Below, piece after piece: positions 1 through 18,389 of a DNA stretch of 44,309 nucleotides (position 1 is its first letter; each line of letters opens with the position of its first letter). This DNA comes from Rariglobus sp. (lineage in GTDB: Bacteria; Verrucomicrobiota; Verrucomicrobiia; Opitutales; Opitutaceae). The stretch is from assembly GCA_044377395.1 (NCBI GenBank), contig JBILJE010000001.1:1-44309 (forward strand). The letters are read 5' to 3'. The notes below the pieces were generated by a model, which did not search any database, had not been told where the DNA came from, and saw only the letters and a list, made by a program, of their open reading frames with translations. Made by a program: the position numbers and the translations under genes.

Positions 1-1338
1 CTTGGCGGGGGGCAGAGTGCTGAACGGCACGACCAGGGCGTCGAGATCATGTTTTTCGCAAAGCTCGGTGATGGCGGCGCGGAGTTGGGTGCGCAGGCGC
101 TGGCGGGCGAGGTAGTCGGGGCTTTGTTCGGGCGGCGGGAGTAGGAGGGCGTCGTTCATCGCCTTGGCGAACTGATCGGGGCCGACTTTGGTGATCATCT
201 CCTGGATGGTCTTGAACGGAGCGGTGGGGCCGAAGCGGGCGAGGTAGGCGTTTTGGTTGGGGAGCTTTTCGTATTCGGCGGTGCGGCCAATCGTGGCGGT
301 GGCCAGTACCTTCAGATCGAGGCCGGTCTGGACATCCATGACCTGCGCGCCGCCCTTTTTGAGATCGGCGAGGGCCTTTTCGAAGATCGCAATGCCCTCG
401 GCGTGGGCGGGGCCGGAGTGGATCATCTCGCGCAGGACGCCGATGCGCTGGCCGGGAAGCCGGGCGGCGACGACTTGGGCGGGCCAGTCGGGTTGCGGGA
501 AGTGGCCGAAACCGGAGGACGTGATGAGATCCTCGGCGTCCCAGCCGGCTACGACGGAGAGCACCACGGCGACATCGTAAACGCTGCGGGCCATGGGGCC
601 GGCGCGATCCTGGGTGGCGCCGCGCGGCATGATGCCGGCGCGGGAGACGAGACCCTGGGTGGCGACCATGCCGGAGATGCCGGAGTTGGAAGACGGTATG
701 ACGACGGAGCCACCGGTATCGGTGCCGATGCCAACGGCGGCGAACCAGGCGGAGATGGCGGCGCCAGTGCCATTGGAGGAAGTGCCGGGCGTGTAGCCGA
801 GTTTATAGGGATTATGGGTGGCGCCGATGCGGCTGGTGTGGTCGAAGCCATCGCCAAACCAGTTGGCGGTATTAACCTTTGCCAGGATAATGGCGCCAGC
901 GGCCTTGAGGCGGGCGGTGACGGCGGAATCGCGAGCGGGAATTTTATCGCCGAAGGGTTTGAAGCCGGCGGTGGTGGGCATGCCGGCGACATCGAGCAGA
1001 TCTTTCACGACGACGGGGATGCCGTGGAGAGGGCCGCGTGATTTACCGGCGGCGCGTTCGGCGTCGAGGGCCTTGGCCTCGGCGAGGGCGTTGGGGTTGA
1101 GGTGGATGACCGAGTTGATTTTCGGTCCCTGTTGGTCGTAGGCCTCGATGCGGGCGAGGTAGAGGGTAACGAGTTTCTCGGAGGAGAGTTTGCCCGCCTT
1201 GGTGGCGGCCTCGATGTCGGCGAGGGTGGCGGTGGCGAGGTTGAATTCGGCGGCGCGGACTTCGCTTGGAATGACCAATGCCGAATGACCAATGACCAAT
1301 GAGCAGAGCAGGAGGCGGGCGTTATGTGGGAGGCGCAT
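1..1338 (-). CDS. Exported amidase-signature family hydrolase (Ami1), 3' end beyond the window edge; absent from the supplied ORF track
   Basis: Translated by hand from ATG at 1338: MRLPHNARLLLCSLVIGHSALVIPSEVRAAEFNL...GPLHGIPVVVKD...PGTSSNGTG...GTDTGGSVVIP. The frame is open to base 1 and the Lys/cis-Ser/Ser triad motifs are present. Confidence 0.92.
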   Translation of the reverse strand, partial: MRLPHNARLLLCSLVIGHSALVIPSEVRAAEFNLATATLADIEAATKAGKLSSEKLVTLYLARIEAYDQQGPKINSVIHLNPNALAEAKALDAERAAGKSRGPLHGIPVVVKDLLDVAGMPTTAGFKPFGDKIPARDSAVTARLKAAGAIILAKVNTANWFGDGFDHTSRIGATHNPYKLGYTPGTSSNGTGAAISAWFAAVGIGTDTGGSVVIPSSNSGISGMVATQGLVSRAGIMPRGATQDRAGPMARSVYDVAVVLSVVAGWDAEDLITSSGFGHFPQPDWPAQVVAARLPGQRIGVLREMIHSGPAHAEGIAIFEKALADLKKGGAQVMDVQTGLDLKVLATATIGRTAEYEKLPNQNAYLARFGPTAPFKTIQEMITKVGPDQFAKAMNDALLLPPPEQSPDYLARQRLRTQLRAAITELCEKHDLDALVVPFSTLPPAK

Positions 1339-1349
1339 GTTGGATGGTT

Positions 1350-2984
1350 TTAGCGGGTGAATTCGATGAACTCTCCCTCAAGGGCGGGCGTGGAGGCGGG
1401 AAGTTTGCGGTGCTTGGAACCCTGCTCGAAGGCGTAGCCGAGGCCGAGGAGCGGGCCCTCGGTCCAGGGCTTGCCGAGGAACTCAAGACCAACGGGCATG
1501 CCATCGGAGGCGGTGAAGCCGGCGGGGACGGTGAGGCCGGGGAAGCCGGTGGCGGTGCTGATGCGCGTGCCGCGGCCGAGCTTGTCGTAGTTGGCGGCAC
1601 CCTCGACTGCGCCGGCCTGCGGAGCGGCCTCCTCGATGGTGTGCTCGAGGATCGTCTGGTATGGGTAAACGATGACGTCGAGATCGTAGCGTGCGTAGAG
1701 ATCCAGAATGATCTTCTGGAGTGCGGCGCGGTTGCGGGCGAACGCGTCGTAGTCGGAATTCGCGTACATAGGAGGCGCGGACTGTGCGCGATCCAGACCC
1801 TTTTTGAGTTTTCCGAGGGCCTGGCCGGAGGCGATGATGTCGGCGAGGGACTTGATGGAACCATCCGGGTGGCGGTTACCCAGATAGATGGCTAGGGCCT
1901 CGCGACGCTCGGCGGAGGAGGTGGCGACATCCTTGAGCACGGTGAAAAGATCCAGCCCCAGGGGGAGCGGGTCGATGAGGACGGCTCCGGAATCCTTGAG
2001 CACTTTGATGGCGGCGTCGGCCACGGCGCGACCCTCGGCACCGTCGGGCGTATCGCCGAAGTTTTCGCGCAGAACGCCGATGCGGGCGTGTTTAAGGGCG
2101 TCCCTTTTAAGGTAACTCAAGTAGCCCTCAGCGGGGAAATGGCCGAGGCTGGCGGCGGTGAGGAGGTCGCCGGCGTCCATGCCGCCGACGGCGTGGAGGG
2201 TGAGAGCGACATCGGTGACAGTGCGCGCCATGGGACCCGTGCGGTCGAGCAGGAGCGAGCTCGGCAGGACACCGTGGCGGGAGACGAGACCCAGGGTGGG
2301 CGCGAGGCCGACGAGATTGTTTTTCGTCGAAGGATTGCGGATGGAAGAGCCGGTCTCGGTGCCAAGACCGACCTGGGCGAAAACAGCGGCTAGGCCGGCA
2401 CCGGTGCCGGCGGAAGAACCGCCGGGACTCTTGAGTAGATTATAAGGATTCTTGGTTTGACCGCCCAGCCCGCTAGTGCCGGAGGAGCCGCTGTTGAACT
2501 CGTCGAGATTGGCCTTGGCGAGAATGATGGCACCGCCCTCACGGAGACGACGGATGGTGAAAGCGTCGCGCAGGGGAATGTTGCCCGCGAGGCCCTTGTA
2601 GCCGCCGGAAGTCGGGAGGTCGAAGGTATCGTAATTATCCTTGGGGAGGACGGGGATGCCGTGGAGAGGACCGCGGACCTTGCCGGCGGCGCGCTCGGCA
2701 TCGAGGGCGCGGGCTTGCTCAAGAGCCTTGGCGTTAAGGGTGATGATGGAGTTGAGCGTGGGGCCCTTTTGGTCGTAGGCAGCGATGCGGGCCAGGTAGA
2801 GGGAGACGAGTTTTTCGGAGGTCAGAGTCCCCTGAGCCATCGCGAGCTGAAGCTCGGGTATGGTGGCGTCCGCCAGCGCGACGCGGGTTTTAGCGGGTTC
2901 GGCGGCTTGGAGCGCGCTGCCGGAAATGACCAATGACGAATGTCCAACGACCAATGAACAGAGGGCGAGGCGGAGGAGGTGCAT
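1350..2984 (-). CDS. Exported amidase-signature family hydrolase (Ami2)
   Basis: GPLHGIPVLPKD, PGGSSAGTG and GTETGSSIRNP motifs; signal peptide ending ALQA-A. Confidence 0.93.
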   Translation of the reverse strand: MHLLRLALCSLVVGHSSLVISGSALQAAEPAKTRVALADATIPELQLAMAQGTLTSEKLVSLYLARIAAYDQKGPTLNSIITLNAKALEQARALDAERAAGKVRGPLHGIPVLPKDNYDTFDLPTSGGYKGLAGNIPLRDAFTIRRLREGGAIILAKANLDEFNSGSSGTSGLGGQTKNPYNLLKSPGGSSAGTGAGLAAVFAQVGLGTETGSSIRNPSTKNNLVGLAPTLGLVSRHGVLPSSLLLDRTGPMARTVTDVALTLHAVGGMDAGDLLTAASLGHFPAEGYLSYLKRDALKHARIGVLRENFGDTPDGAEGRAVADAAIKVLKDSGAVLIDPLPLGLDLFTVLKDVATSSAERREALAIYLGNRHPDGSIKSLADIIASGQALGKLKKGLDRAQSAPPMYANSDYDAFARNRAALQKIILDLYARYDLDVIVYPYQTILEHTIEEAAPQAGAVEGAANYDKLGRGTRISTATGFPGLTVPAGFTASDGMPVGLEFLGKPWTEGPLLGLGYAFEQGSKHRKLPASTPALEGEFIEFTR

Positions 2985-2990
2985 GTTAAA

Positions 2991-4664
2991 TTAATAAGAG
3001 AACTTCTCGCCGGGGAGGGCGGGCGTGCTCTCCGGTGATTTACGGTGGCGAGTGGCGGCCTCGTAGGCGGAGGCGAACTTGATGAGGGCGGGCTCGCTGT
3101 AAGGACGGCCGAGGAACTCGAGGGCGATGGGGCGGTTCTCGGAGACGAAGCCGGCGGGCACGAGCAGGCCGGGGAAACCGGTTTGGGAACTGAGCGGGTT
3201 GTCAGCGTCCTTGTTGGTCCAGCCGTCCTTGATTTTGGTGGCGGGCAGGGTCTTGAACGGGAAGACCAAGGCGTCGAGCTGGTAGCGGTCCATCAGATCG
3301 ACGACGGCCTTTTGGATCGTCTCGCGGTTTTTGAGTCGGGCGACGTAGGCGGGATTGTTATCGAGATCGGTGACGGCGTTTTGCTTCTCAATATTTTTGA
3401 GGTGCTCGGGGTTTTTAGCGATCATCTCGGTGAGGTCCTTGTAGGGTGAACCGGAGCCGAGGCGGGCGAGGAAAAGATTGGTGGACGCGCGCTTTTCCCA
3501 TTGGGCGACGCGGGTGTCGGAGAGGATGTCGAGAAGTGGGAGACCGGTGGAGATGGGGTCGTAGATGACGGCGCCGGCGGCCTTGAGGTCCTTGATGGCC
3601 GTCTCGATGAGAGCGAGGCCCTCGGCGTGTTGCGGGCCGGAGCGGAACATATCGCGGAGGACGCCGATGCGGGCGCCCTTGAGTCCGTTTTTGGGATCAA
3701 CGAAAGAGAGGAACCCCTCAGGCGGGATCTGTCCGCGGGAAGACATGGTGACGAGATCCTCGGCATCGACGCCTGCGATGACATCCAGAGTGGCGGCGAG
3801 ATCGTAAACGGAGCGGGTCATGGGACCGCCGCGCTCGTGGGTGAAGGCGCTCATGATCATGCCGCCGCGGGAGACGAGGCCGAGGGTTGGCGCGAGACCG
3901 ACGAGATTATTTTCCGACGTGGGGTTGCGGATGGAGACGCCGGTTTCGGAGCCGAGGCCGACGGTGGCGAAGTAGGCGGCGATGCCGGCACCGGTGCCGC
4001 TGGAGGAGGCGCCGGGAACGTAGTCGAGGTTGTAGGGGTTTTTTGTCTGGCCGATGATCGTGCTGGCGCCCCAGTTGGTCTTGGCGAACCAGTCGAGGGT
4101 GTTGACCTTGGCGAGGATGATGGCACCGGCCTCCTTGAAGCGGGTGACGACAAAGGCGTCGCGAACAGGCATGGCGTTCTTGAGGCCGATGAAGCCGCCG
4201 GTGTTGGGCATGCCAACGACATCGAAGAGGTCCTTGAGGATGACGGGCACGCCGTGGAGGGGAGAGCGCGGACCCTTGGTTTTACGCTCGGCGTCGAGAG
4301 CGCGGGCCTCGGCGAGGGCATTTTGGTTGAGAGTGACGACGGTGTTTACGGCCGGCCCCTTTTTGTCGTAGGCCTCAATGCGGGCGAGGTAGAGCGAGAC
4401 GAGTTTTTCGGAAGAAAGAGCCCCGGCGTCGAAGGCGGCGTTGATGTCCGCGATCGTGGCGGTGGCCAGATCGAACTCCGCTGCGCGGAGTTCGCCTGGA
4501 ATAACCAATGCCAAATGAACAATGGCCAATGCGGCGCAGAGGCGACGAATTACAAATGGCCAATGACCAATGACCAATGAGGCGCAGGGGCGACGAATTA
4601 CCAATGGCCAATGACCAATGGCCAATGAGCGGAGCAGGAGGCGGGTGTGGCGGAGGGGGCGCAT
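2991..4664 (-). CDS. Exported amidase-signature family hydrolase (Ami3) with triplicated leader repeat
   Basis: HGVPVILKD, PGASSSGTG, GSETGVSIRNP; leader of about 60 aa with three LxIxHxxxVI units. Confidence 0.93.
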   Translation of the reverse strand: MRPLRHTRLLLRSLAIGHWPLVIRRPCASLVIGHWPFVIRRLCAALAIVHLALVIPGELRAAEFDLATATIADINAAFDAGALSSEKLVSLYLARIEAYDKKGPAVNTVVTLNQNALAEARALDAERKTKGPRSPLHGVPVILKDLFDVVGMPNTGGFIGLKNAMPVRDAFVVTRFKEAGAIILAKVNTLDWFAKTNWGASTIIGQTKNPYNLDYVPGASSSGTGAGIAAYFATVGLGSETGVSIRNPTSENNLVGLAPTLGLVSRGGMIMSAFTHERGGPMTRSVYDLAATLDVIAGVDAEDLVTMSSRGQIPPEGFLSFVDPKNGLKGARIGVLRDMFRSGPQHAEGLALIETAIKDLKAAGAVIYDPISTGLPLLDILSDTRVAQWEKRASTNLFLARLGSGSPYKDLTEMIAKNPEHLKNIEKQNAVTDLDNNPAYVARLKNRETIQKAVVDLMDRYQLDALVFPFKTLPATKIKDGWTNKDADNPLSSQTGFPGLLVPAGFVSENRPIALEFLGRPYSEPALIKFASAYEAATRHRKSPESTPALPGEKFSY

Positions 4665-4682
4665 GGGAGATAGGGAGCGGAA

Positions 4683-5846
4683 TCAATACTGGTCGAAGAC
4701 GCGTTTGATCTCGGCGAGATCGGTGGACTTGGAGAGCGCGAGTTGGAGTAGGATGCGGGCCTTTTCAGGCGGGAGGTTGTCGCCTGGGACGACCTTCGAT
4801 TCGGTGCGGCGAGGGGTCTGCTGGACGCGACCGCCATCGGTGCGGGCGGTTGCGACGATGACCACCCCGGCGGCCTGGGCTTTCTTGATGGCCTCAGTCA
4901 TGCTGTTGGGGATTGAACCCGCGCCGGTGCCGTCGACGACGATACCCTTGACCCCATTGGCGACCATCGCATCCACAATGTAGCCAGGGGTCTCGTGGTA
5001 GGTGTAGATCACCTCGACGGGAGGGAGCGTGGCGGGAAGTTTAGCGACATGGAACTCGGACTGGAAGGTGTGGCGGCGGGTCGGCTCGGTGTAGAATTTG
5101 ACGATGTCGGGGTCGGCGACGCCGATGACGCCGACGTCAATGCCTTGAAAGGTATGCATCCGGTAGGCGCTGGCCTTGGTGACATCGCGGATCGGGAAAA
5201 CATTTTGGTTCATCGCGTGGAGGACGCCCTTAGATGAGGCTTCGGGGGTGGCGGCGACCCGGACGGCGTTGACCATGTTTAGAGGGCCATCGCCGGAGAG
5301 GGCGGTCCAAGGACGCTGTGCGCCGACCATGACGACGGGCTTCTTGATATCCACGGTGAGGCTCAGGAAGTAACCGGTCTCGACCATGATATTGGTGCCA
5401 TGAGTGATGACGACGCCATCAATGGACGGGTCGGCGGCTATTTCCTGGAGACGACGGGCGACCTTGAGCCAGTGGGCGGTATCCATCGTGGACGGTTCGC
5501 CGGGTGCGCGGAGGTCTTCGGGTGTGACCTTGGCGTAAAGGGCGAGGTCGGGCAGATCGGCGATCCACTGCTCGGGATTGAGGCGGGGGGCAACGTAGTT
5601 GGTGACGTTAAGTCGGTCCTTGGCTGTGCCCGAGATGGTGCCGCCGAGAGAGACGAGGAGAACATGTGGCTTGGGCTGAACGCCGGGAGGGATGCGGTCG
5701 GGAATCTCGGCGGCCGAGATTCCCGAAATGACCAATGAACAATGACCAAAGACGAATGCGGCGGTGAGCCGACGAATGACGAAGGACCAATGCCCAATTA
5801 CCGATGACGAGGCAGGGGGGCGAAGATGGGAAAGGGAGGCTTTCAT
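4683..5846 (-). CDS. Exported asparaginase/glutaminase (type II fold) family protein (Asn1), atypical active site
   Basis: SLGGTISG, THGTNIM, GAQRP, DGPLN, RDVTK, DNLPPEKARILL and C-terminal FDQY. Start placed at ATG 5846 (MKASL) rather than the TTG at 5897. Confidence 0.88.
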   Translation of the reverse strand: MKASLSHLRPPASSSVIGHWSFVIRRLTAAFVFGHCSLVISGISAAEIPDRIPPGVQPKPHVLLVSLGGTISGTAKDRLNVTNYVAPRLNPEQWIADLPDLALYAKVTPEDLRAPGEPSTMDTAHWLKVARRLQEIAADPSIDGVVITHGTNIMVETGYFLSLTVDIKKPVVMVGAQRPWTALSGDGPLNMVNAVRVAATPEASSKGVLHAMNQNVFPIRDVTKASAYRMHTFQGIDVGVIGVADPDIVKFYTEPTRRHTFQSEFHVAKLPATLPPVEVIYTYHETPGYIVDAMVANGVKGIVVDGTGAGSIPNSMTEAIKKAQAAGVVIVATARTDGGRVQQTPRRTESKVVPGDNLPPEKARILLQLALSKSTDLAEIKRVFDQY

Positions 5847-5893
5847 GTGGAGCGTGGCGATATGGGAGGTGGCGCTGGTCTGTATTGAGAGAC

Positions 5894-6943
5894 TCAATAT
5901 TCGTTAAAAATGCGCTGTAGCTCGCGGGTCTCGGTTGTCTTGGTGAGGGCGAGGCGGAGGAGTATCCGGGATTTCTGCGGATTGAGGTTGTCGGAAGTGA
6001 CCTGGCCGCGGGCGGCGACGTTGGAGCTGATGGTCACACGACCCGCTCCCTTGCGGTCGCTATGCACTATGACCACACCCTTGGACTGGGCGGCTTGGAT
6101 TGCCTTGGCGAAGGCGGGGGAACCATCGGCGAAAACGATGCCCTTAGCTCCGGCCTCGGTGAGCGCGGCGATGGGGGCGGGGCTGGCCTCTTGGTAGCCG
6201 TAAACGACATCCACCATCGGAAGTGTAGTGAGAGCGGAGATATCAAACTCGGACGCGGCGGTGTGCTTGCTAAGCAGCTTGCGGTAGAAGACGACACGAT
6301 CCGTATCCACGAAACCGATCGGACCGAGCTCGCGGGAGACAAAAGTCTCGACGTGGTAGGTGTGGCCCTTGGTGACGAAGCGGGCTGAGTGGATGGTATC
6401 GTTGAGGACGACGAGAGCACCATGGCCGGCGGCCTCAGGGGTGGCGGCCACGCGGACGGCGTTGTAGAGATTATACGGGCCATCGCGACTGATGGCGGTG
6501 AAGGGCCGCATGGCACCGACCACGACGACGGGTTTGGAGGACTTGACGGTGAGGTGGAGGAAAAAGGCAGTCTCCTCGAGCGTGCCCGTGCCGTGGGTGA
6601 CTACCGCTCCGCTGACCTCAGGGCGGGCGAGCTCTTTGGTGATGGCCTTGGATAAACGAAGAAGTTTCTCGGCATCCATGTTGCCCGAACCGACGTTGGA
6701 AATCTCGGTGACCTCGATGCGGGCTAGGCCTTTGAGTTCGGGAAGATCGGCGAGAAGTTCATCGGGGGTTACGCGACCGGCGTTGTATTCCATGAGCGTG
6801 AGGCGGTGAGCGCCCTTGCTTTGGATGGTTCCGCCGGTGGTGAAGAGTGCAACGAGGGGGAGATTGTCCGCGGCGGCCGTGGAAATGACCAATGACGAAT
6901 GGCCAATGACCAATGAGAGGAGGAGGAGTCGGAGAAGACGCAT
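5894..6943 (-). CDS. Exported asparaginase/glutaminase (type II fold) family protein (Asn2), atypical active site
   Basis: TTGGTIQS, THGTGTLEET, GAMRP, DGPYN, FVTK, DNLNPQKSRILL and C-terminal FNEY; signal peptide ending AAA-D. Confidence 0.9.
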   Translation of the reverse strand: MRLLRLLLLSLVIGHSSLVISTAAADNLPLVALFTTGGTIQSKGAHRLTLMEYNAGRVTPDELLADLPELKGLARIEVTEISNVGSGNMDAEKLLRLSKAITKELARPEVSGAVVTHGTGTLEETAFFLHLTVKSSKPVVVVGAMRPFTAISRDGPYNLYNAVRVAATPEAAGHGALVVLNDTIHSARFVTKGHTYHVETFVSRELGPIGFVDTDRVVFYRKLLSKHTAASEFDISALTTLPMVDVVYGYQEASPAPIAALTEAGAKGIVFADGSPAFAKAIQAAQSKGVVIVHSDRKGAGRVTISSNVAARGQVTSDNLNPQKSRILLRLALTKTTETRELQRIFNEY

Positions 6944-6950
6944 GGTGAAA

Positions 6951-8531: not shown

Positions 8532-8584
8532 GGAAAGATGTTTAAGGTGAAAGATTAAGTTGAAGCCGGGCGGACTGGCGGAAC

Positions 8585-8607
8585 ACGGGCAGGAATGCCT
8601 GTGCCAA
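8585..8607 (-). repeat. Single REP-like hairpin (TTGGCACAGGCATTCCTGCCCGT) in the widest inter-amidase gap
   Basis: Stem ACAGGCA-TTCC-TGCCCGT with a TTGG foot, the same architecture as the GTAG/GTGG repeats elsewhere in the window. Only one copy here. Confidence 0.4.
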
Positions 8608-8613
8608 GGGGGC

Positions 8614-10194
8614 TCAGTAGCTGATTTTCTCGCCGGGGAGGGCGGGCGTGCTCGGCGGAAGTTTGCGTACGTCGCCGGCCTTGGCTTCGTAGCCGGCGGC
8701 GAGCTGGATCAACGTGGGCTCACTCCATGGGCGTCCAAGGATTTCGAGGCCAACCGGGTTGCCGTCGGCGGTGAAGCCCATCGGGACGATCATGGCGGGC
8801 AGGCCGGTGACCGGGCTCAGCTGGTTGGGCGTGTATTGGCGCTCGGCGTCATCGCGGGGACCGAGCGGGAGGGGCTTGGTGAGTTTGTGGGGGTAGATAA
8901 GGGCATCGACCTGGTAACGATCCATGAGGTCGATGACGGCCTGGCGCAGGGCGGCTTTGCCCTTGAGTGTGGCGCGGTAGGCGGGGTCGCGGTTGAGGTC
9001 GAAGGGCTTGGCGAGGGCGGCCTTATCGGCGTCTCGCGTGGGGATGTCCTTGTGGCCGAGAAGGAGCTCGGTGGCGTTCTTAAACGGATAACCCGGGCCT
9101 TGGCGCGCGAGGTAGAGATTGATGGCGTGGATCCGCTCGTAGCGCGAAGGCGAGGAGTTCGCCTCGAGGTAATTCGGGAGATCGATGCCGAGGGAAACAG
9201 GGCGAAAAACCTTGGCACCGTTCTTGGCAAACACGGCGATGGCTTTTTCAGCCATGGCGATGATCTCGGGCTCGGGTTTGGGCTTGGTGAAATCGTAGCC
9301 TTCCTTAAGCACACCCAAGCGCATGCCGCTGATGCCGTCGGTCTTCACAAAGCTAACGTAGGGTTGGTCAGGCATCTGGCCGAGGCTCTGGGCAGTCCAA
9401 AGGTCGAAGGCGTCGAAACCGGCCATCACGTCGAGCATGACGGCGAGATCGGCCACGCTGCGTGTCATCGGTCCGCCGCGTTCACCGGTGATGTAGCTCG
9501 CCATCTGGCCGTCGCGGGAGATGAGCCCGGACGTGGTGGAGAGCCCGTAGAGATTGCTGTCACTCGTGGGGGTGCGAATGGAGAAACCGGTCTCGGTGCC
9601 GAGCCCGCCCGCACCCAAGACGGCGGCGACAGCCGCGCCAGTGCCGGAGCTAGACCAGCCGGATGTGCGGGTGAGGTCGTAGGGGTTGCGGGTGTTGCCG
9701 CCGAGCGTGCTGGCGGCAACATGGGGCGGATTGGCAAACCAGTCGGACTGGTTGAGCTTCGCCAGGATGATGGCGCCAGCGTCCTTGAGCTTGGTGATTA
9801 CGAAGGCGTCCTTGGTGGGCTTTACGCCTTTGAGAGGGAGGTAACCGCCAGTGGTGGGCATGTCGACCGTGTCGAATACATCTTTAACCACGATGGGCAC
9901 GCCATGGAGAGGCGAGCGCGGACCCTTGGTTTTGCGCTCGGCGTCAAGGGCCTTGGCCTCGGCGAGGGCGTTGGCGTTGATGTGGAGAACGCTGGCGATC
10001 TTCGGGCCTTGCGAATCATAGGCGGCGATGCGCGCCAGGTAGAGTTGCGTGAGCTTCTCGGATGTCAGAGCTCCGGACTGCATGGCGGCTTGAGTTTCTG
10101 CGAACGTCGCAGTCGCGAGATCAAACTCCGCGGCGTGGGTGGTGCTGGCGAGGGCGATGGCCAGGAACAGGGTACGAACCAAAGAAGGTTTCAT
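8614..10194 (-). CDS. Exported amidase-signature family hydrolase (Ami5)
   Basis: HGVPIVVKD, SGWSSSGTG, GTETGFSIRTP; signal peptide ending THA-A. Confidence 0.93.
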   Translation of the reverse strand: MKPSLVRTLFLAIALASTTHAAEFDLATATFAETQAAMQSGALTSEKLTQLYLARIAAYDSQGPKIASVLHINANALAEAKALDAERKTKGPRSPLHGVPIVVKDVFDTVDMPTTGGYLPLKGVKPTKDAFVITKLKDAGAIILAKLNQSDWFANPPHVAASTLGGNTRNPYDLTRTSGWSSSGTGAAVAAVLGAGGLGTETGFSIRTPTSDSNLYGLSTTSGLISRDGQMASYITGERGGPMTRSVADLAVMLDVMAGFDAFDLWTAQSLGQMPDQPYVSFVKTDGISGMRLGVLKEGYDFTKPKPEPEIIAMAEKAIAVFAKNGAKVFRPVSLGIDLPNYLEANSSPSRYERIHAINLYLARQGPGYPFKNATELLLGHKDIPTRDADKAALAKPFDLNRDPAYRATLKGKAALRQAVIDLMDRYQVDALIYPHKLTKPLPLGPRDDAERQYTPNQLSPVTGLPAMIVPMGFTADGNPVGLEILGRPWSEPTLIQLAAGYEAKAGDVRKLPPSTPALPGEKISY

Positions 10195-10215
10195 AAAAGC
10201 GATGGTAGAGGCCGA

Positions 10216-11826: not shown

Positions 11827-11844
11827 GGCGGGTGACGATGGAAG

Positions 11845-13413
11845 TTAGTAAGTGAACGATTCGCCCGGGAGGACCGGCGTAGAGGAGGGAAGGATACGGT
11901 AGTGGGTGGCGACTTCGTAGCCGTGGGCGAGGGCGAGGAGATCGCGCTCGGCGAAGGCGCGGGAGAGGAACTCGATGCCTACGGGCTGGTTGAGGCTGGT
12001 GAAACCGGCGGGCACGCAGATGGCGGGAAGTCCCGAGACGGAGCTGAGCTTCACCTTGGTGTAAACCTGCGGCTCGTTGATGTATTGCGCGGGGTAGAGG
12101 TTGTGCAGGTAAACGAGGCCATCGAGTTTCTGGTCATCCATGAGCTTTTCGAGGGCGGCGCGGAGGGTGGCGCGTTTGGCGACATCGCGCTTGTAGGCGG
12201 CGTCGGTTTCGCGCGGAGGCGAAGTAAGCGCCTTGGTGTAGCTGGCGTGCTTGTTCCAGATGATGCCGCCGTCTTTGATCAAATCGGCGAGATTCTTGAT
12301 GGGGGAGGTGGGCCCGAGGGAGGCAAAGTAGTGGTTAAGTCCGTCGCGCAATTCGGCGGGGCCGATCGCGGGCGTGTTAAGCAACTCCGTGACGTTTTCA
12401 GGAATGGCGGCGGGCTCGACTAGGATCGCCCCGGCGTCTTTGAGTTCGCCCAAGGCGCGCTCGGTGATGGCGCGGGCCTCGGCGGTGACGGGATCAGTGG
12501 AGGTGAAGACCTGGCGGAAAACGCCAAGGCGCGCGCCCTTTAGGCGATCGGGCGGGAGCTGGCCGATGAAAGGTTTGTTAGCGAGAACGGCGGCACTGCG
12601 CTGGGTGAGGGGATCGGCGGGATCCAGGCCGATGCTGTAGTCGAGCATGACGCCCAGGTCGGCGACATAGCGGGCCATGGGGCCGACGCGATCGAGGGTG
12701 GTGGAGTTCGGGATGACACCATCGCGGGAAACGAGGCCCTCGGTGGGGCCGAGGCCGACTACATTGTTGTGAAAGGCGGGGCCGCGGGTGGAGGAACCGG
12801 TCTCGGTGCCAAGGGCCACAGGCGCGTAAACGGCAGCAAGAGCGCCGCCGGAACCGGAGCTGGAGCCGTCGTTGTGACGGGCGAGGTTATAGGGGTTGCG
12901 GGGAACTCCGCCGAGCGTGCTCGCGCCGTTGAGGCCGGGCGCACCGGAGGCGAATTCGGAGAGATTTGATTTGGCGAGGATGACGGCACCGCCTTCGCGG
13001 AGTTTTTTAACGATAAAGGCGTCGTCGGGCGGCACGCTGTTTCGTAGAGCGAGCGTGCCGCCGGAGTCGGGCTGGTCGAAGGTGTCGATGCAGTCCTTCA
13101 CGATCACGGGGATGCCGTGCATGGGACCGCGCCGACCCTTGGTTTTGAGTTCGGCGTCGAGCTTGCGTGCGTCGAGGCGTGCACGAGCGTTTACGGCGAT
13201 GATCTGGTTTAGCGCGGGCCCGCGTTGGTCATAGGTAGCGATGCGTTCCAGGTAGAGCTCCACCAGTCGTTCGTAGGTCAAGGCACCGGCATCCACGGCG
13301 GCATGGATGTCGGCGACGGAGGCGGTGGTGAGGTCAAACTGAGCGGCGGGGAGGGCGGGGGCTCCGAACAGCGGCAGTGTGGCCGCGAACAGGCGGGAAC
13401 GTAGGGAACTCAT
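11845..13413 (-). CDS. Exported amidase-signature family hydrolase (Ami7)
   Basis: HGIPVIVKD, NDGSSSGSG, GTETGSSTRGP; signal-peptide-like N-terminus ending LPA-A. Confidence 0.92.
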   Translation of the reverse strand: MSSLRSRLFAATLPLFGAPALPAAQFDLTTASVADIHAAVDAGALTYERLVELYLERIATYDQRGPALNQIIAVNARARLDARKLDAELKTKGRRGPMHGIPVIVKDCIDTFDQPDSGGTLALRNSVPPDDAFIVKKLREGGAVILAKSNLSEFASGAPGLNGASTLGGVPRNPYNLARHNDGSSSGSGGALAAVYAPVALGTETGSSTRGPAFHNNVVGLGPTEGLVSRDGVIPNSTTLDRVGPMARYVADLGVMLDYSIGLDPADPLTQRSAAVLANKPFIGQLPPDRLKGARLGVFRQVFTSTDPVTAEARAITERALGELKDAGAILVEPAAIPENVTELLNTPAIGPAELRDGLNHYFASLGPTSPIKNLADLIKDGGIIWNKHASYTKALTSPPRETDAAYKRDVAKRATLRAALEKLMDDQKLDGLVYLHNLYPAQYINEPQVYTKVKLSSVSGLPAICVPAGFTSLNQPVGIEFLSRAFAERDLLALAHGYEVATHYRILPSSTPVLPGESFTY

Positions 13414-13439
13414 GGCAGGAACGCGGGAACGACGGTTTG

Positions 13440-15029
13440 TTAGTAAGAAAACTTGTCTCCGGGCAGGGCGGGTGTGAGGGCGGCGGGCTTGCGGTTCTTC
13501 GAGGCCTGCTCGTAGGCGTAGGCGAGCTTGAAGAGCACGGGCTCGGAGTAGGGGCGACCGAGGAACTCGACGGATATGGGGCCGTTTTCCTTCACAGTGT
13601 AGCCGGCGGGGACGAGTAACGCGGGAAGACCCGTCACGGAGCTCACAGAGTTGTCTTTCTCGGCTACGTTACGATCGAGGTGGCCCTCGGGGGGGAGCGT
13701 CTTGAACGGATGGACGAGGGCATCGAGTTTATACTTGTCCATGACCTCGACGATGGCGTCGCGGATGGACTCCTGCATGTCGCGGCGGGCGAGGAAGTCG
13801 GCGTGGTGGTCGAGCGAACGGAACTCGGCATAGCCCTTGCGGATGCTCGGCTTCACGAGCTCTCCGTAGGCCACGAGTTCGTCCATGTTCTTGATGACGG
13901 CGTTCGGGCCGAGGCGGCGGAAGTAGAGGTCGTAGGAGAACTGCGCCTCGTGGTAATTCGTGCGCATGCCACCGGATGAATCAAGGACCGTGAACAGATC
14001 AATGCCTAGGGTGACTCCCTCGACGATGATCGCACCCTCGCTCTTCATCTGGGCGATTGCTTTGTCGATGAATGCGGTGCCTTCAGCGTGTTTTTCTCCC
14101 TTGCGGAAGAGGTCTCGGAAGATGCCGATGCGGGCACCCTTGAGTCCGTCTTTCTTGAGGAATTGCGTGTAGGAGCCGTCGGGCATGTTACCCGGCGTGG
14201 TGATGGTGAGAAGATCCTCGGCGTCGAAACCGGCGACGACATCCGTGAGGGCGGCAACGTCATAAACGTTGCGGGCCATTGGGCCGGCGCGCTCCTGCGT
14301 GAACGACGTCATGACCTGGCCGGTGCGCGAGATGAGGCCGCGGGTCGGAGCAAGGCCGGCGAGGGAGTTGTTCGCCGTAGGATTACGAATAGAGACGCCT
14401 GTCTCGGAGCCGAGACCGACGTGGGCGAAGGTGGCGGCCAGCGAGGAGCCGGTGCCGCCTGAGGAGCCGCCGGGCGTGATGTCGGCGTTGTAGGGATTAA
14501 GCGTGCGGCCGAGTACGGTGCTCTGGTCTCCGGGCTTGGGAACGCCGAACCAGTCGCTCATGTTGACCTTGGCAAGGATGATGGCTCCGGCGTCACGGAG
14601 GCGCTTCACCACGGCGGCGTCGTGAATCGGAAGCGAGTTCTTAAGGGGAAGGAAACCGGCGGTGGTGGGCATGTCTTTCGTATCGAAGAGATCCTTCAGC
14701 ACCACAGGAACGCCGTGCAGGGGGGAACGGGGGCCCTTGGCCTTGCGCTCAACGTCGAGTGCGCGAGCGGTCTCAAGCGCCTTGGCGTTGAGCGTGATGA
14801 TCGAATTGATCTTCGGGCCGGCCTGGTCGTAGGCCTCGATGCGTTTCAGGTATAGTCCCACCAGTTTCTCAGAGGTGAGCGGACCGGCGTCCATAGCGGT
14901 TTGAATGTCGGCGACCGTGGCGGTCTCGAGATTAAACTCGGCGGAGTGGACGGGGAGAGCGGCGACAAACAGCGCGAGCGTGAGCGGCAGTGCGCGGATG
15001 GTGTGACTAAGGAAACGAGGTGCGATCAT
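13440..15029 (-). CDS. Exported amidase-signature family hydrolase (Ami8)
   Basis: HGVPVVLKD, PGGSSGGTG, GSETGVSIRNP; signal peptide ending VHS-A. Confidence 0.93.
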   Translation of the reverse strand: MIAPRFLSHTIRALPLTLALFVAALPVHSAEFNLETATVADIQTAMDAGPLTSEKLVGLYLKRIEAYDQAGPKINSIITLNAKALETARALDVERKAKGPRSPLHGVPVVLKDLFDTKDMPTTAGFLPLKNSLPIHDAAVVKRLRDAGAIILAKVNMSDWFGVPKPGDQSTVLGRTLNPYNADITPGGSSGGTGSSLAATFAHVGLGSETGVSIRNPTANNSLAGLAPTRGLISRTGQVMTSFTQERAGPMARNVYDVAALTDVVAGFDAEDLLTITTPGNMPDGSYTQFLKKDGLKGARIGIFRDLFRKGEKHAEGTAFIDKAIAQMKSEGAIIVEGVTLGIDLFTVLDSSGGMRTNYHEAQFSYDLYFRRLGPNAVIKNMDELVAYGELVKPSIRKGYAEFRSLDHHADFLARRDMQESIRDAIVEVMDKYKLDALVHPFKTLPPEGHLDRNVAEKDNSVSSVTGLPALLVPAGYTVKENGPISVEFLGRPYSEPVLFKLAYAYEQASKNRKPAALTPALPGDKFSY

Positions 15030-15144
15030 GATAAATTGAATACTGGCAAAAGGGGGTGGGCTGAAGAGGTCGGCCGGTAAGGGGCGGCACGTTGGCCGCG
15101 CAGTGAGAAGTCGGAGGTGTAAACCTGAGGCTCGTGACGAGCCG

Positions 15145-15193
15145 AAAAGGAGCCTCGACGGTGGCGCGGTGAAAGCACCGCGCCACCGTGAGG
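15145..15193 (-). terminator. Strong hairpin just after the receptor stop codon (partial terminator or mRNA-stabilising stem)
   Basis: Perfect 14-bp stem ACGGTGGCGCGGTG-aaag-CACCGCGCCACCGT (15158-15189). On the minus strand it is followed only by a short, offset T run (CTCCTTTT). Confidence 0.65.
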
Positions 15194-15203
15194 ACAGAAG
15201 CGT

Positions 15204-17936
15204 TTAGAACTGCTTCGTGACTGTGATCTGATAGCCGCGTCCGGGCATCGCGGAGACGAGCACATCGCCGGCTCCGGTGCCGTTACGGCCGCGGAAGGAT
15301 TGCACGTCGGTGATGTTCTTCACATCGAGCTTAATACTCCAACTGTTCTTCTTGTAGCCGACGCCGGTGTTGAACGTTAAGGCTTCGGGCAAGGTGACCG
15401 TCTGCAGACGTCCGGAGTGAATTTCCGAGATGTAGTTGCCGCTGCCGCTGATCAGGAAGCCACTGTCGAACGTATACTGGGCCTGAAGACCGTGTGAGGT
15501 GCCCGGGTAGGAGGGGTGCTCGGTCTTTTCGCCCTTAGGGACGCCGATGCTGGCCACGCCTCCCTGGGTGAAGGCTTCGGCCGGGTAGATAACGTTACCG
15601 GATCCGTCCAGCACATCGGTGAAGCCGAGTGGCTCGCCATGAACACGAACGAATTCAGTGCCGCTGAACACGAGCTCGGTCTTCTGGAAGACGGAGAACC
15701 CGCCGACCCAGAAGTTTTTATTTGGTGCGTAACGGAACTCGAATTCGATGCCTTCGCCTTTCACATTACCGAGACCGCCCGCTAGCGGGTTACCCGCAGC
15801 ATCCGCAGTGACGGTGCTGCGTTCCTGACTGTATGCAGCGACAGCTGTGTAGAGTTTTCCGCCGAGGAAGTTTCCTTTGACGCCGACTTCCGTCATGACG
15901 GCCGGGTCATAGGGACCCGCTTTTACCAAGTTGCCGGGCATTGTCAGGTCCGCGCTGTCACTCAGTGCGGTTTGCTGACCAAAGGTGATGTAGGGAATGA
16001 GTCCGAACGGGGCCTTGCCCGAGAGACTGATGGTATATGACTTTCCTAAGTCATTGCCTTCGCCTGAGTTCGAGGCTGCGGCGGCGGCATTTGTGAAGGT
16101 GCCGTCTGTACCGATTGAGTAGAGTCCGGCAGGAACTTCAGTTTCTGCTTGGATGTAATCTAGGCGACCGCCTACGAGTAGGTTGAGCTTTTCGAAGAAC
16201 TCGATGTCGAACATTGAACCAACGCCGCTCTCGGCGTAACTGGTCGTGATGTCACCGCTAAAAGGAGCGCCGCCGTTAAAGTAGTCCGAGTTTTCTTTAG
16301 GCGATACGAATAAATCGTCAGCGGTGCGGATGTTGTTATCAAGCGAGAGATCGGGGCGATCATCGTAGTCCCCAGAGTTGAATCGACGTGAGGCATTCGT
16401 GTAACGGAGATTGACCGAGGAGATGGTGTTAATACCGAGCCAGTCGGGCAATTTGTCGTCGGGGAGTTTGGCCTCCAAAGTGAATTTATCCTCCACAATC
16501 CAGACGTCCTGCTTTTGGTAGAATGGAAGCTCGGAATCTTTAAACTGATCCTGTGAATCAAAAAGAATCTGATTCTTGATCTTCGCGTCCGGGTTCTTGT
16601 CGTTGACGAAGTCGATGTAGGCCAAGCCCAATTTGGCGAAGAGTTCTTTCTCCAGCGCCACGTGGTGGTAGTTAATCTCGGCGGCTTTAACCGTGTCGGG
16701 ATCTTGGACAAATCCTTTTGGAAGGACGTTGAGCAACTTTAAGTTATTACCGTAGCGTGCGGGGTCGGCTGCCATTGTGGCAACGAACGCCGGGTTGGAT
16801 GCGTGAAGAGCGGCAAGAGCGCTATTGGCATTGGCTCCAGCGCCGGTGGGGATAACGGGGTTGGCTAGCGCGGTCGCATACTTGGTGCCCGCGCCAAAAC
16901 GTTGGACAAGCGCGCGGTTGGTCGAACTGGCCGCGCCGAACACGCCGCCTACGGGTGAGCCGAGAACCATTTCCCGCTCGGAGATCTTGCCACTGCCATC
17001 CGTGTCGAGCTTCACCATAGCGCTACCGCCCCAGTAGGTGCCATCGTCGATAAGTTCTTGGGTTACGCGGTTCAGGAAGCCGCCAGCACCTTTGGTCTCT
17101 TGGTAATTAACCCCGGTTTCCATGCGCCATGATTTGTTGATGTCTTTAGAGATGGCACCCTGTATCACTTTCTGTCCGAGCGGCACGTTCACGTAATAAG
17201 AGTCGGAGTCTTCGACCAAACCGAAGAGGTAGTAACCACCGGGATTTTCGTCTTTTTTGCCGAGCTTGAGTGAACCGCCGTAGCCGAACGAGGCGATGCG
17301 CTTGTTCTCGCTGCCAAACGTTAATTCAGCGAAGCCCTTGGACTCGTCCAAGTAAGCGCCGGCGCGGGAGCGGCCGGACTTGGGCGTCATGTTAGTGTAG
17401 CCGCCGATCTTGCCGGAGCCAAAGTAAGCGGGCGCGGGACCGCGAACCACTTCGACTTGGTCGTTGGCGGCAAGTACGGTGCGCGAGTTGCCCTGGGGCT
17501 CGATGCGCTTCATGCCGCGGAAATAGGTGTCCGCGGTCATATTGCGGATATCGATGTTGCCCTGGATGCCCCACCGGGTGGTGGTGTTGGCATTCGGGAC
17601 GATACGCGAGAGATCGGACACCTCGCTGATCGCCATGTTGGCGAGCATCTCGGAGCTGACAACGGAGACGGAACGGGGAGTCTCGACAATCGTCTTGGAG
17701 AAGCCGATCGCGCCCTCGATGGGCTGCGTGGGCAGAATGAAATTCGGGTCTTGGGATTCCTGGACGGAGAACTCTTCGAGGGTGATGATTTCTTCGCCGG
17801 CCTTGGCTGGTGCCGGAGTGGTCTGTGCGTGAAGCAGGCCAGCGGGGGTCATCAAACATAGAGTGGAACTGACGAGCACGCCGCCTTTGCGCAGGCACGA
17901 CGGCGTCCTCGGGATGGGCTTTGTCTTCTTTTTCAT
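15204..17936 (-). CDS. TonB-dependent outer-membrane receptor
   Basis: Signal peptide (LHA-Q), TonB-box-like EIITLEEFSV, plug motifs ETPRSVSVVS and QVEVVRGPAPAYFGSGKIGG, barrel motifs EVGVKG and GEGIEFE, C-terminal GRGYQITVTKQF ending in Phe. Confidence 0.93.
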   Translation of the reverse strand: MKKKTKPIPRTPSCLRKGGVLVSSTLCLMTPAGLLHAQTTPAPAKAGEEIITLEEFSVQESQDPNFILPTQPIEGAIGFSKTIVETPRSVSVVSSEMLANMAISEVSDLSRIVPNANTTTRWGIQGNIDIRNMTADTYFRGMKRIEPQGNSRTVLAANDQVEVVRGPAPAYFGSGKIGGYTNMTPKSGRSRAGAYLDESKGFAELTFGSENKRIASFGYGGSLKLGKKDENPGGYYLFGLVEDSDSYYVNVPLGQKVIQGAISKDINKSWRMETGVNYQETKGAGGFLNRVTQELIDDGTYWGGSAMVKLDTDGSGKISEREMVLGSPVGGVFGAASSTNRALVQRFGAGTKYATALANPVIPTGAGANANSALAALHASNPAFVATMAADPARYGNNLKLLNVLPKGFVQDPDTVKAAEINYHHVALEKELFAKLGLAYIDFVNDKNPDAKIKNQILFDSQDQFKDSELPFYQKQDVWIVEDKFTLEAKLPDDKLPDWLGINTISSVNLRYTNASRRFNSGDYDDRPDLSLDNNIRTADDLFVSPKENSDYFNGGAPFSGDITTSYAESGVGSMFDIEFFEKLNLLVGGRLDYIQAETEVPAGLYSIGTDGTFTNAAAAASNSGEGNDLGKSYTISLSGKAPFGLIPYITFGQQTALSDSADLTMPGNLVKAGPYDPAVMTEVGVKGNFLGGKLYTAVAAYSQERSTVTADAAGNPLAGGLGNVKGEGIEFEFRYAPNKNFWVGGFSVFQKTELVFSGTEFVRVHGEPLGFTDVLDGSGNVIYPAEAFTQGGVASIGVPKGEKTEHPSYPGTSHGLQAQYTFDSGFLISGSGNYISEIHSGRLQTVTLPEALTFNTGVGYKKNSWSIKLDVKNITDVQSFRGRNGTGAGDVLVSAMPGRGYQITVTKQF

Positions 17937-18030
17937 GTGGGCTCTGGATGTTTTCTGGATGTGTCGTTTGCTAATGATGCGGTTGGTGGTTTGCGCATTT
18001 CACCGAATCAAGTTGGTCATTATTTGACTG

Positions 18031-18051: not shown

Positions 18052-18389
18052 GTGCCAATGTGGTCGACAACTCAGCACCCACTGTGCCCAGAGCGCGTTC
18101 CGTTAAACGTAGGCTGGGTAGTTTGATAAGATTCAACAGGCGCGTTGCGCTGATTCACTTCTGCTCAAGCGCACCAGGGTTGAGGACCGATTCTGCCCTG
18201 CCGCGCGGTTACAACCCGCACAAGCCGGATCAGGGCAGTCATCAGCCGCTGCTGTGCGTGGTGGCTGGATACTCTTCTTAGGCGTAGATCATGTCCTCTG
18301 AGCGGCCGGTCCTTCAGGCAGTAGTTTTGCGTGGAATCAACGGCTCCGCATAGGTCAGAGCATTTTAATGAAAACGGTAGCCGTTTAAG

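What the first reader, a model, noticed from the sequence alone, without database searches (positions are those of the whole stretch)
1..17936. Candidate 'amide utilisation locus': one TonB-dependent receptor heading an array of at least 8 exported amidases and 2 exported asparaginase-fold enzymes
Seen: 11 co-oriented genes, gaps of 6-82 bp between the ten enzymes, a signal peptide on each, and no other gene type interleaved. The array continues past the window edge. Established: amidase-signature enzymes (peptide amidase Pam, allophanate hydrolase, FAAH, urethanases) and asparaginase/glutaminases both cleave C-N amide bonds, and a TonB receptor plus periplasmic hydrolases is the layout of Bacteroidota PULs and proteobacterial CUT loci. 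Inference: an import-and-hydrolyse system for amide, carbamate or ureide nitrogen, or for one complex amide-rich substrate processed stepwise. I do not know a described locus with this composition. It is also a compact library of candidate urethanases/polyamidases.
Basis: partly seen in the sequence, partly recalled or inferred. Interest (0 to 1): 0.9.

Follow-up and report, generated by a model that had tools for sequence, protein, structure and literature searches.

The report
Receptor-fed amidase battery scavenging nitrogen
A lake bacterium carries an outer-membrane importer gene followed by 14 genes for amide-splitting enzymes predicted to be exported, a layout that recurs in dozens of relatives and likely serves to pull in organic amides and strip off their nitrogen as ammonia, a route my literature searches did not find described.

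Summary
The window (G000:C229, an Opitutaceae-type lake bacterium) holds a TonB-dependent receptor, 8 amidase-signature genes and 2 asparaginase-fold genes. Contig C71 overlaps the window start and adds 2 amidases, 2 asparaginase-fold genes and an RND efflux pump. All 8 window amidases keep the catalytic triad, are 37-55% identical and resemble peptide amidase Pam. Orthologues show dN/dS 0.07-0.19. All 25 asparaginase-fold enzymes examined lack Asp90, so they are probably not L-asparaginases. The receptor clade is tightly tied to hydrolases: 30 of 37 informative Opitutaceae loci carry C-N hydrolases and the other 7 carry secreted serine hydrolases, against 0 of 18 control receptors. Two closed genomes have 22 and 24 amidases behind such receptors. 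A sigma-54 motif precedes 32 of 90 family receptors (2.6% background); in this genome the motif also precedes amtB, glnA, nirA, flagellar genes and the pump. I found no Fur box, SusD, glycosidase or inner-membrane importer. Best reading (0.62): import of varied amides, periplasmic deamidation, ammonium uptake, possibly with pump export of the carbon remnant. Substrates, export and expression are untested.

The parts
18122..18136 (-). AT-rich near-palindromic box (consensus TTGAAT-N3-ATTCAA, 10 of 12 matches), 32 nt upstream of the sigma-54 site; candidate operator or DNA-bending site
   Evidence: same box at the same distance in L007 and L040
18075..18089 (-). Predicted sigma-54 (-24/-12) promoter, about 150 nt before the receptor start; first base G instead of the consensus T
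   Evidence: PWM 11.2, best site in the 664-nt upstream region, next best -0.3; conserved in L007 and L040
15204..17936 (-). TonB-dependent receptor, 910 aa; model shows plug, 22-strand barrel and a roughly 130-aa largely helical loop insertion; 10-15% identical to solved receptors
   Evidence: (pLDDT 85, pTM 0.82)
13440..15029 (-). Amidase A1 (Pam-like), 529 aa; orthologues in 12 other loci
11845..13413 (-). Amidase A2, 522 aa
10216..11826 (-). Amidase A3, 536 aa; heptamer repeat in signal-peptide DNA (11760-11787)
8614..10194 (-). Amidase A4, 526 aa
6951..8531 (-). Amidase A5, 526 aa; best PDB match Pam (E 4e-97)
5894..6943 (-). Asparaginase-fold enzyme N1, 349 aa; HGTGT instead of HGTDT, Gln59 position is Gly
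4683..5846 (-). Asparaginase-fold enzyme N2, 387 aa from the ATG at 5846; HGTNI instead of HGTDT
2991..4664 (-). Amidase A6, 557 aa; expanded repeat-coded signal peptide; best PDB match Pam (E 5e-71)
1350..2984 (-). Amidase A7, 544 aa
1..1338 (-). Amidase A8, runs off the window. It is completed on contig C71 (L001:8104-8525), followed there by A9 (6484-8082), A10 (4779-6365), N3 (3636-4751, lipoprotein-type leader), N4 (2374-3564), RND membrane-fusion protein (761-1885) and AcrB-type pump (<1-751)

Best explanation
The locus encodes a TonB-dependent receptor followed by ten Pam-like amidases and four asparaginase-fold enzymes, and it likely works as a nitrogen-scavenging unit: a predicted sigma-54 promoter would switch it on when nitrogen is short, the receptor would import dilute organic amides into the periplasm, and the predicted-exported enzymes would each release ammonia from a different class of amide. 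Ammonium would enter through the two AmtB channels encoded elsewhere (C143). The locus has no inner-membrane importer, so the carbon remnant may stay outside the cytoplasm and be cleared by the adjacent RND pump, which has the same promoter layout. SHOWN: gene content, intact catalytic residues, purifying selection, conserved receptor-hydrolase linkage, conserved promoter motif. INFERRED: periplasmic location, co-transcription, nitrogen control, amide import, role of the pump. Likely substrate classes are C-terminally amidated or N-acylated amino-acid and peptide amides (Pam-like enzymes) and dicarboxylate monoamides or N-blocked Asn/Gln (asparaginase-fold enzymes); no compound is identified.
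For: (1) Linkage. I fetched 40 loci's list by receptor score; 37 were informative. The script flagged 28 with a C-N hydrolase and 7 with a secreted alpha/beta-hydrolase triad. The remaining two also have one on inspection: L025 an amidase directly downstream, L059 two divergent acetamidases. Metagenome family loci: 20 of 28 informative with a C-N hydrolase, 2 with the serine hydrolases, 6 with neither. Control receptors: 0 of 18 informative; none of the 34 listed shows an amidase or asparaginase. (2) The swapped cargoes are mostly C-N hydrolases of unrelated folds: deaminase-like Amidohydro_1, AtzH/AtzG/AtzE, FmdA_AmdA. A 29%-identical Sphingobium homologue sits among purine-catabolism genes. 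(3) A strict sigma-54 motif precedes 32 of 90 receptor genes, mostly 55-77 nt before the start, against 2.6% of 2,660 random windows. In G000 the same matrix hits amtB, a glnA-type gene (recognised by sequence), nirA, and the urea-carboxylase-region binding-protein gene. RpoN and NtrC-like activators are present. (4) The eight window amidases fall into eight separate tree clades, seven with orthologues elsewhere and clade-specific pocket motifs; dN/dS is 0.07-0.19 for 9 orthologue pairs. (5) 25 of 25 asparaginase-fold enzymes keep the catalytic Thr of HGT but lack Asp90. (6) RND genes lie in 6 of 37 genome loci and 4 of 28 metagenome loci, 0 of 18 controls, also at the end of the G038 array and heading a G073 amidase operon. 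The G000 and G010 pump promoters carry the same box plus sigma-54 site.
Against: The window's own sigma-54 site misses the strict pattern by one base and scores below all 33 training sites. The matrix also hits flagellar genes in G000, so sigma-54 is not specific to nitrogen. An NtrC-type box (recalled consensus) was found at only 4 of 90 promoters, no more than the 5% background, so the activator is unknown. Seven of 37 loci carry serine hydrolases whose nearest folds are lipases and esterases, and 6 of 28 metagenome loci have no hydrolase nearby. Related genomes are not independent observations. The nearest solved receptors are siderophore transporters, though only 10-15% identical. Most loci show no RND pump within the fetched stretch.
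Confidence: 0.62

Rival explanations
1. A carbon-and-nitrogen catabolic locus for one family of amidated peptides, such as C-terminal peptide amides or amidated cell-wall peptide fragments, processed stepwise as in a polysaccharide utilisation locus.
For: Pam, the nearest solved enzyme, hydrolyses peptide amides. Loss of Asp90 fits N-blocked or peptide-bound Asn/Gln. An S9 and an M20 peptidase flank arrays in G010 and G033. A fixed three-amidase set recurs in 7 loci.
Against: No peptidase, glycosidase or inner-membrane importer is in this locus or in the closed-genome arrays read (one SulP gene lies on the opposite strand in G038). Enzyme number varies from 2 to 24, and strains differ at A9 and after N4, which is unlike a fixed pathway.
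Confidence: 0.17
2. A detoxification or signal-quenching battery: amidases inactivate amide-containing antibiotics, signals or xenobiotics in the periplasm and the RND pump expels the products.
For: An RND pump is adjacent and shares the promoter layout. One Tat-type amidase of a relative's array is closest to urethanases, ClbL, NylA and aryl acylamidase.
Against: An energised importer heads the operon in nearly all loci, which is counter-productive for defence. Distant family members sit with biuret/carboxybiuret and purine catabolism.
Confidence: 0.08
3. Siderophore or metallophore piracy: the receptor imports foreign siderophores and the amidases cut them to release the metal, like PfeA-PfeE (recalled).
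For: The best structural matches are FhuA, PiuA, Fiu and FoxA, and automatic names say 'iron complex receptor'.
Against: Identity to those receptors is 10-15%. No Fur-like box exceeds 12 of 19 matches in 90 upstream regions. The promoter motif is sigma-54-type. Asparaginase-fold, deaminase-like and AtzE cargoes make no sense for iron release.
Confidence: 0.07
4. A neutral tandem expansion behind a strong promoter, with the receptor link incidental.
For: Shared repeat-coded 5' ends and strain-level gene turnover show active recombination in the array.
Against: Paralogues are 37-55% identical, intact and under purifying selection. Order is kept in another genus (G369, 81-91% identity for A4-A8, N1, N2), and the receptor link holds across genera.
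Confidence: 0.02

Closest known systems
Peptide amidase Pam of Stenotrophomonas maltophilia (PDB 1M21/1M22/5AC3; Ser226-Ser202-Lys123 per PMC11732141, passages seen)
   Same: Best PDB match of both window amidases searched (A5 E 4e-97, A6 E 5e-71); catalytic Lys and both Ser aligned; N-terminal export signal.
   Different: None of the eight reaches the curated cut-off of any listed NCBIfam amidase family (best PRK08137, 296-457 bits against 534). Pocket loops differ between paralogues. Here there are ten copies behind a receptor.
Type II L-asparaginases (E. coli AnsB, B. subtilis AnsZ 9BAD, Erwinia, Helicobacter)
   Same: Same fold over the full length; Thr12, Tyr25, Thr89 and Lys162 equivalents kept; N1 passes TIGR00520 (378 against 314 bits).
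   Different: Asp90 is replaced in 25 of 25 locus enzymes and the Gln59 position is changed in N1, N2 and N3; N2 misses the TIGR00520 cut-off (301).
Bacteroidota PULs (SusC/SusD) and Xanthomonas CUT loci (definitions recalled)
   Same: A TonB-dependent receptor heads a co-oriented set of exported hydrolases, with exchangeable enzyme cargo.
   Different: No SusD, no glycosidase, no inner-membrane importer and no local regulator. The enzymes are C-N hydrolases, the promoter motif is sigma-54-type, and an efflux pump is adjacent.
FhuA/PiuA/FoxA-type siderophore receptors and receptor-esterase pairs such as PfeA-PfeE (the latter recalled)
   Same: Plug plus 22-strand barrel (TM 0.60/0.77 to FhuA); periplasmic hydrolase downstream.
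   Different: 10-15% identity, about 200 residues longer with a large helical loop insertion, no Fur box, amide hydrolases in arrays.
atzDGEHF cyanuric-acid operon of Pseudomonas sp. ADP (PMC6219798, search listing and start of abstract only)
   Same: A distant branch of the same receptor family sits directly before AtzH/AtzG/AtzE genes (L011, L091, L092, L097, L098, L105, L157, L158).
   Different: The window has no Atz genes, and the paper's text had 0 occurrences of 'TonB-dependent'.

Membership tests
TonB-dependent transporter | N-terminal plug domain | tested here: met
   PF07715 E 1e-10, above cut-off
TonB-dependent transporter | 22-stranded beta-barrel with C-terminal Phe | tested here: met
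   22 long strands counted in the AlphaFold model; F910 invariant in 62 homologues; Foldseek E 5e-37 to FhuA
TonB-dependent transporter | TonB/ExbBD-dependent uptake of a ligand | not testable with these tools
   TonB/ExbBD genes adjoin the receptor in several relatives and lie elsewhere in G000
Siderophore receptor (TIGR01783, Fur-regulated) | Family score above cut-off; Fur box | tested here: not met
   60 bits against 223.5; best Fur match 12 of 19 in 90 regions
Amidase signature family | PF01425 above cut-off; Lys / cis-Ser / Ser triad | tested here: met
   8 of 8 window proteins
Peptide amidase Pam (function) | Hydrolyses the C-terminal amide of peptides | not testable with these tools
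   nearest structure for A5 and A6; activity unknown
GatA, AtzE, allophanate hydrolase, indoleacetamide hydrolase | NCBIfam curated cut-offs | tested here: not met
   all eight amidases far below
UMG-SP urethanase clade | Nearest solved relative is a urethanase | tested here: not met
   Pam ranks first for A5 and A6; urethanases E 1e-23 to 1e-26 for A6. Six window amidases were not searched against PDB
Type II L-asparaginase | Fold and Thr12/Tyr25/Thr89/Lys162 | tested here: met
Type II L-asparaginase | Asp90 (HGTDT) and Gln59/Glu; listed as crucial in PMC8470970 (passage seen); the amino-binding role of Asp90 is recalled | tested here: not met
   0 of 25 keep Asp90; N1 and N3 have GSG at the Ser58-Gln59 position
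Bacteroidota PUL | SusC-SusD pair and carbohydrate-active enzymes | tested here: not met
   no SusD or CAZyme among the locus genes; no SusC family hit
CUT-type locus | Inner-membrane importer and regulator inside the locus | tested here: not met
   none on C229 or C71; LysR plus NMT1_2 genes near 3 related loci only
Sigma-54 regulon | -24/-12 motif at a conserved position; RpoN and activator in the genome | tested here: inconclusive
   family-wide enrichment strong; window site one base off but conserved in two relatives; RpoN present; activator not identified
Operon | Single transcript | not testable with these tools
   gaps 6-174 bp; terminator-like sites no more frequent than in shuffles

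The most novel reading that the evidence does not exclude
This receptor clade defines 'nitrogen utilisation loci', the nitrogen counterpart of polysaccharide utilisation loci. One broad-specificity TonB importer feeds an exchangeable periplasmic battery of up to about 30 amide hydrolases of at least four unrelated folds under sigma-54 control. The cell keeps only the ammonia and ejects the carbon remnant through a co-regulated RND pump (strip-and-eject). The 'Asp90-less' asparaginases would be a new enzyme subfamily acting on amides with no free alpha-amino group.
Probability: 0.35. Interest if true: 0.87.

Novelty: new variant of a known kind. Interest (0 to 1): 0.72.

Why it matters
How lake and soil bacteria reach the amide-bound part of dissolved organic nitrogen is poorly known, and TonB receptors are mostly assigned to iron, vitamins or sugars. 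This locus names a receptor clade, a promoter type and a set of soluble enzymes that make the question directly testable. It gives Opitutaceae, usually seen as polysaccharide degraders, a candidate role in nitrogen cycling (receptor in 71 of 401 family genomes). It is also a natural library of diverged amidases: Pam-like ones for peptide C-terminal chemistry, a Tat-type one nearest to urethanases, and asparaginase-fold enzymes with a changed pocket.

Tried and rejected
Rfam scan of the window: 0 families at gathering score, so no riboswitch. Sigma-70 promoter and terminator scans: at shuffle level. NtrC-type box: 4 of 90 against 5% background. Fur box: not found. Sequencing-run search: no RNA holder listed, so expression is untested. 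Literature: 10 searches of the open full-text library. No paper held all terms for 'TonB-dependent + amidase + Opitutaceae', for 'TonB-dependent receptor + amidases + operon + nitrogen source + NtrC', or at least 4 of 'Verrucomicrobia, sigma 54, TonB-dependent, amide hydrolysis, Opitutus'. One search found 47 papers (20 listed), none of the listed containing 'amidase signature'. The single hits (PMC8594446, PMC6920513; passages read) do not describe such a locus; the latter only notes three amidase genes in one subsurface Verrucomicrobium as possible polyacrylamide degraders. One search gave three Atz papers without 'TonB-dependent'. One search (heptamer repeats in signal peptides) gave nothing relevant among the 10 listed of 240. 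Subscription journals and supplements were not searched. Phylum-wide search: receptor in 5 of 26 family genomes and 1 of 274 others (only 3 candidates scored per genome). The two unknown secreted proteins that accompany many related loci (229 and 181 aa) had no Pfam hit and were not found in G000. The serine-hydrolase triad had no PDB sequence match and only generic alpha/beta-hydrolase fold matches. My ORF picking sometimes extended starts or chose shadow frames, so cargo calls rest on BLAST hit coordinates. Eleven of 34 control loci fell out at its E-value threshold and were checked only.


Full report
OBSERVATION. The window is contig C229 of an 86%-complete, 3.18-Mb metagenome-assembled genome. 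A close syntenic relative (receptor 79%, first four amidases 80-84%) is titled 'Opitutaceae bacterium' (L019). Runs holding the DNA are mostly lake-water metagenomes (24 runs, 18 studies; five were laid). On the minus strand lie a 910-aa receptor and ten enzymes in the order A1-A5, N1, N2, A6-A8. Pfam calls eight Amidase, two Asparaginase and one Plug. Gaps are 6-82 bp between enzymes and 174 bp after the receptor. All leaders look like export signals by a simple test, unlike cytoplasmic GatA.

THE LOCUS IS LARGER. The end of contig C71 matches the first 182 bases of the window with 3 mismatches. Contigs from run X1 and from X8 and X9 (one other study) run past that end. C71 finishes A8 and adds A9, A10, N3, N4, then after 488 bp an RND membrane-fusion protein and an AcrB-type pump on the same strand. 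The unit is about 24 kb: one receptor, 10 amidases and 4 asparaginase-fold enzymes. Genome G369, of another genus, has the same order for A4, A5, N1, N2, A6, A7, A8 at 81-91% identity, with one extra amidase after A4, followed by three amidases and two asparaginase-fold genes. That supports the join.

ENZYMES. The eight window amidases are 37-55% identical and all keep the Lys and both Ser of the triad. None passes a curated NCBIfam amidase cut-off. A5 and A6 match peptide amidase Pam best; Pam's triad and peptide-amide activity are stated in PMC11732141 (passages). In a tree of 207 amidases from the fetched loci, the eight fall into eight clades, seven with orthologues elsewhere, and each clade keeps its own pocket motifs. 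Nine orthologue pairs give dN/dS 0.07-0.19. So these are old, separately maintained specificities, not fresh copies. All 25 asparaginase-fold enzymes examined keep the catalytic Thr of HGT but have Gly, Asn or Thr in place of Asp90. N1 and N3 also have Gly at the Gln59 position. PMC8470970 (passage) lists both residues as crucial and ties Gln59 to the substrate amino group; the same role for Asp90 is my recall. I infer substrates with no free alpha-amino group.

RECEPTOR. The AlphaFold model (62 sequences, pLDDT 85) shows a plug, 22 barrel strands and a largely helical insertion at about residues 286-420. Foldseek's best matches are FhuA-type receptors at 10-15% identity, so they say nothing of the ligand. 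At least 241 homologues exist. The receptor was found in 71 of 401 family genomes and in 1 of 274 other genomes of the phylum. It is one of six Plug matches in G000 and the only one of its clade.

LINKAGE. I fetched 40 loci (39 genomes)'s list, chosen on receptor score and skipping some short contigs; 37 had enough flank. Thirty carry a C-N hydrolase: 28 by script, two by inspection. Seven carry three secreted serine alpha/beta-hydrolases. Of 45 metagenome loci, 28 were informative: 20 C-N hydrolase, 2 serine hydrolase, 6 neither. Among weakly matching generic receptors from the same scan, 0 of 18 informative loci had any, and none of the 34 listed showed an amidase or asparaginase. Kin are not independent, so these counts are not a statistical test. 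The cargo changes with the receptor branch: Pam-like and Tat-type amidases, asparaginase folds, deaminase-like Amidohydro_1 triplets, AtzH/G/E, and arrays of acetamidase/formamidase. A distant Sphingobium homologue lies among xanthine dehydrogenase, deaminase and purine permease genes. Two closed genomes carry 22 (G038) and 24 (G073) amidase matches within about 50 kb behind such receptors, plus 7 and 6 asparaginase-fold genes. Arrays are patchy: 14 of 18 same-genus genomes have only 1-2 amidase matches. Strains in runs X8 and X9 appear to differ at A9 and to have a further amidase after N4.

REGULATION. A strict sigma-54 motif precedes 32 of 90 family receptors, mostly 55-77 nt before the start, against 2.6% of 2,660 random windows. 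The window's site (18089-18075) is one base off and scores 11.2, below all 33 training sites. But it is the only good site upstream, and it is conserved, with a box 32 nt further up, in L007 and L040. In G000 the matrix also marks amtB, a glnA-type gene, nirA, the urea-carboxylase-region binding-protein gene, two flagellar genes and the RND pump. The upstream box scores at least 8 of 12 in 25 of 45 receptor promoters, against 130 of 3,000 random windows; this is circular, because the consensus came from those promoters. Among 41 sigma-54-like sites in G000 the three best boxes belong to the receptor, the pump and a near-identical copy of the pump promoter. No Fur box, NtrC box or riboswitch was found. 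RpoN, NtrC-like activators, two AmtB, cyanase, a BiuH-like fragment, urea carboxylase and an allophanate-hydrolase-like gene are in the genome.

MECHANISM. Shown: content, intact active sites, selection, linkage and the promoter motif. Inferred: under nitrogen shortage the operon is switched on, the receptor concentrates amides in the periplasm, the battery releases ammonia, and AmtB takes it up. No inner-membrane importer lies in this locus or in the closed-genome arrays read, while an orthologous RND pump recurs beside them (83-89% identical between G000 and G010, against 23-36% for other pumps of G000). The carbon remnant may therefore be ejected. This last step is the weakest, as most loci show no pump within the fetched stretch. 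I give 0.62 to nitrogen scavenging, 0.17 to stepwise catabolism of one peptide-amide class, 0.08 to detoxification, 0.07 to siderophore piracy and 0.02 to neutral expansion.

COMPARISON AND NOVELTY. It works like a PUL or CUT locus in layout but fails their defining tests: no SusD, glycosidase, importer or local regulator. The parts are known folds. I found no description of the system in ten searches of an open-access library, which omits most subscription journals. Earlier AI notes from this scan describe what appears to be the same receptor family with amidase batteries, serine-hydrolase triads and sigma-54 promoters in other genomes. They agree but are not independent evidence, and they show that the system has surfaced before in this scan. 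Verdict: real, conserved, a new variant of TonB-receptor utilisation loci; interest 0.72.

Noticed in passing
window 1272-1299, 2927-2947, 4557-4625, 5729-5749, 6886-6913, 11760-11787; L001:3400-3483, 6299-6326, 8025-8052: A tandem heptamer DNA repeat (TTGGTCA-like; resembles cyanobacterial STRR2, recalled) encodes the hydrophobic core of the signal peptide (LVIGHSSLVI) in 9 of the 14 enzymes, in both amidases and asparaginase folds. Eleven of 29 such arrays found in the 3.18-Mb genome lie in this 24-kb locus. Several orthologues have ordinary leaders, and repeat length appears to vary between strains. It looks like a repeat co-opted as an export signal and spread between unrelated genes.
   Followed up: partly
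L027-L029, L033, L034, L036, L037, L064, L067: The same receptor clade heads three paralogous secreted ~475-aa serine hydrolases with an invariant GHST motif, Asp and His, no confident Pfam family, and a generic alpha/beta-hydrolase fold.
   Followed up: partly
L055, L056, L057, L060: A receptor branch followed by 3-5 Amidohydro_1 (deaminase/TRZ-ATZ-like) enzymes with signal-peptide-like leaders; this family is usually cytoplasmic (recalled).
   Followed up: partly
L006:7738-14963, L058, L059, L002:47-1198, L012:514-1596, L148:546-1682: Arrays or single copies of acetamidase/formamidase (PF03069) genes with signal-peptide-like leaders next to the amidase arrays; at least five in a row in G009.
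   Followed up: partly
L011, L091, L092, L095, L097, L098, L105, L157, L158: A distant receptor branch sits directly before AtzH-AtzG and AtzE, often with an unclassified ~530-aa permease, an isochorismatase-family gene and a divergent GntR: a candidate outer-membrane uptake route for cyanuric acid, biuret or related ureides.
   Followed up: partly
L007 and L004 (G010:C95) against window 17936-18140: G010 has nearly the same promoter and leader peptide as the window's receptor, but the receptor body is only 40% identical and the enzyme set differs, suggesting a cassette swap behind a retained promoter.
   Followed up: no
L024:9904-10593 and 10734-11279 and equivalents in 13 other loci: Two small secreted proteins without Pfam match (229 aa; 181 aa, weakly like an asparaginase C-terminal region) recur beside these loci whatever the enzyme cargo; not found in G000.
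   Followed up: partly
L020:52-2023, L150:5513-7524, L151:4816-6819: A divergent LysR plus NMT1_2 (nitrate-sensor-like, no leader) pair lies next to three of the arrays; a candidate regulatory module.
   Followed up: no
L068-L070, L072, L077, L083-L089: Metagenome homologues, some with upstream FecR-like genes (Pfam-checked for L070) and several next to ~765-aa amidases, show the receptor-amidase link outside the Opitutaceae-type context; taxonomy not determined.
   Followed up: no
window 18592-44309: The rest of the window looks like ordinary housekeeping genes (2-hydroxyacid dehydrogenase, PAS hybrid kinase, class II aldolase, ECF sigma, carA, PPK2, lipoate ligase, rmlD-like, pdxH, DsbD, apt); nothing links them to the locus.
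   Followed up: no
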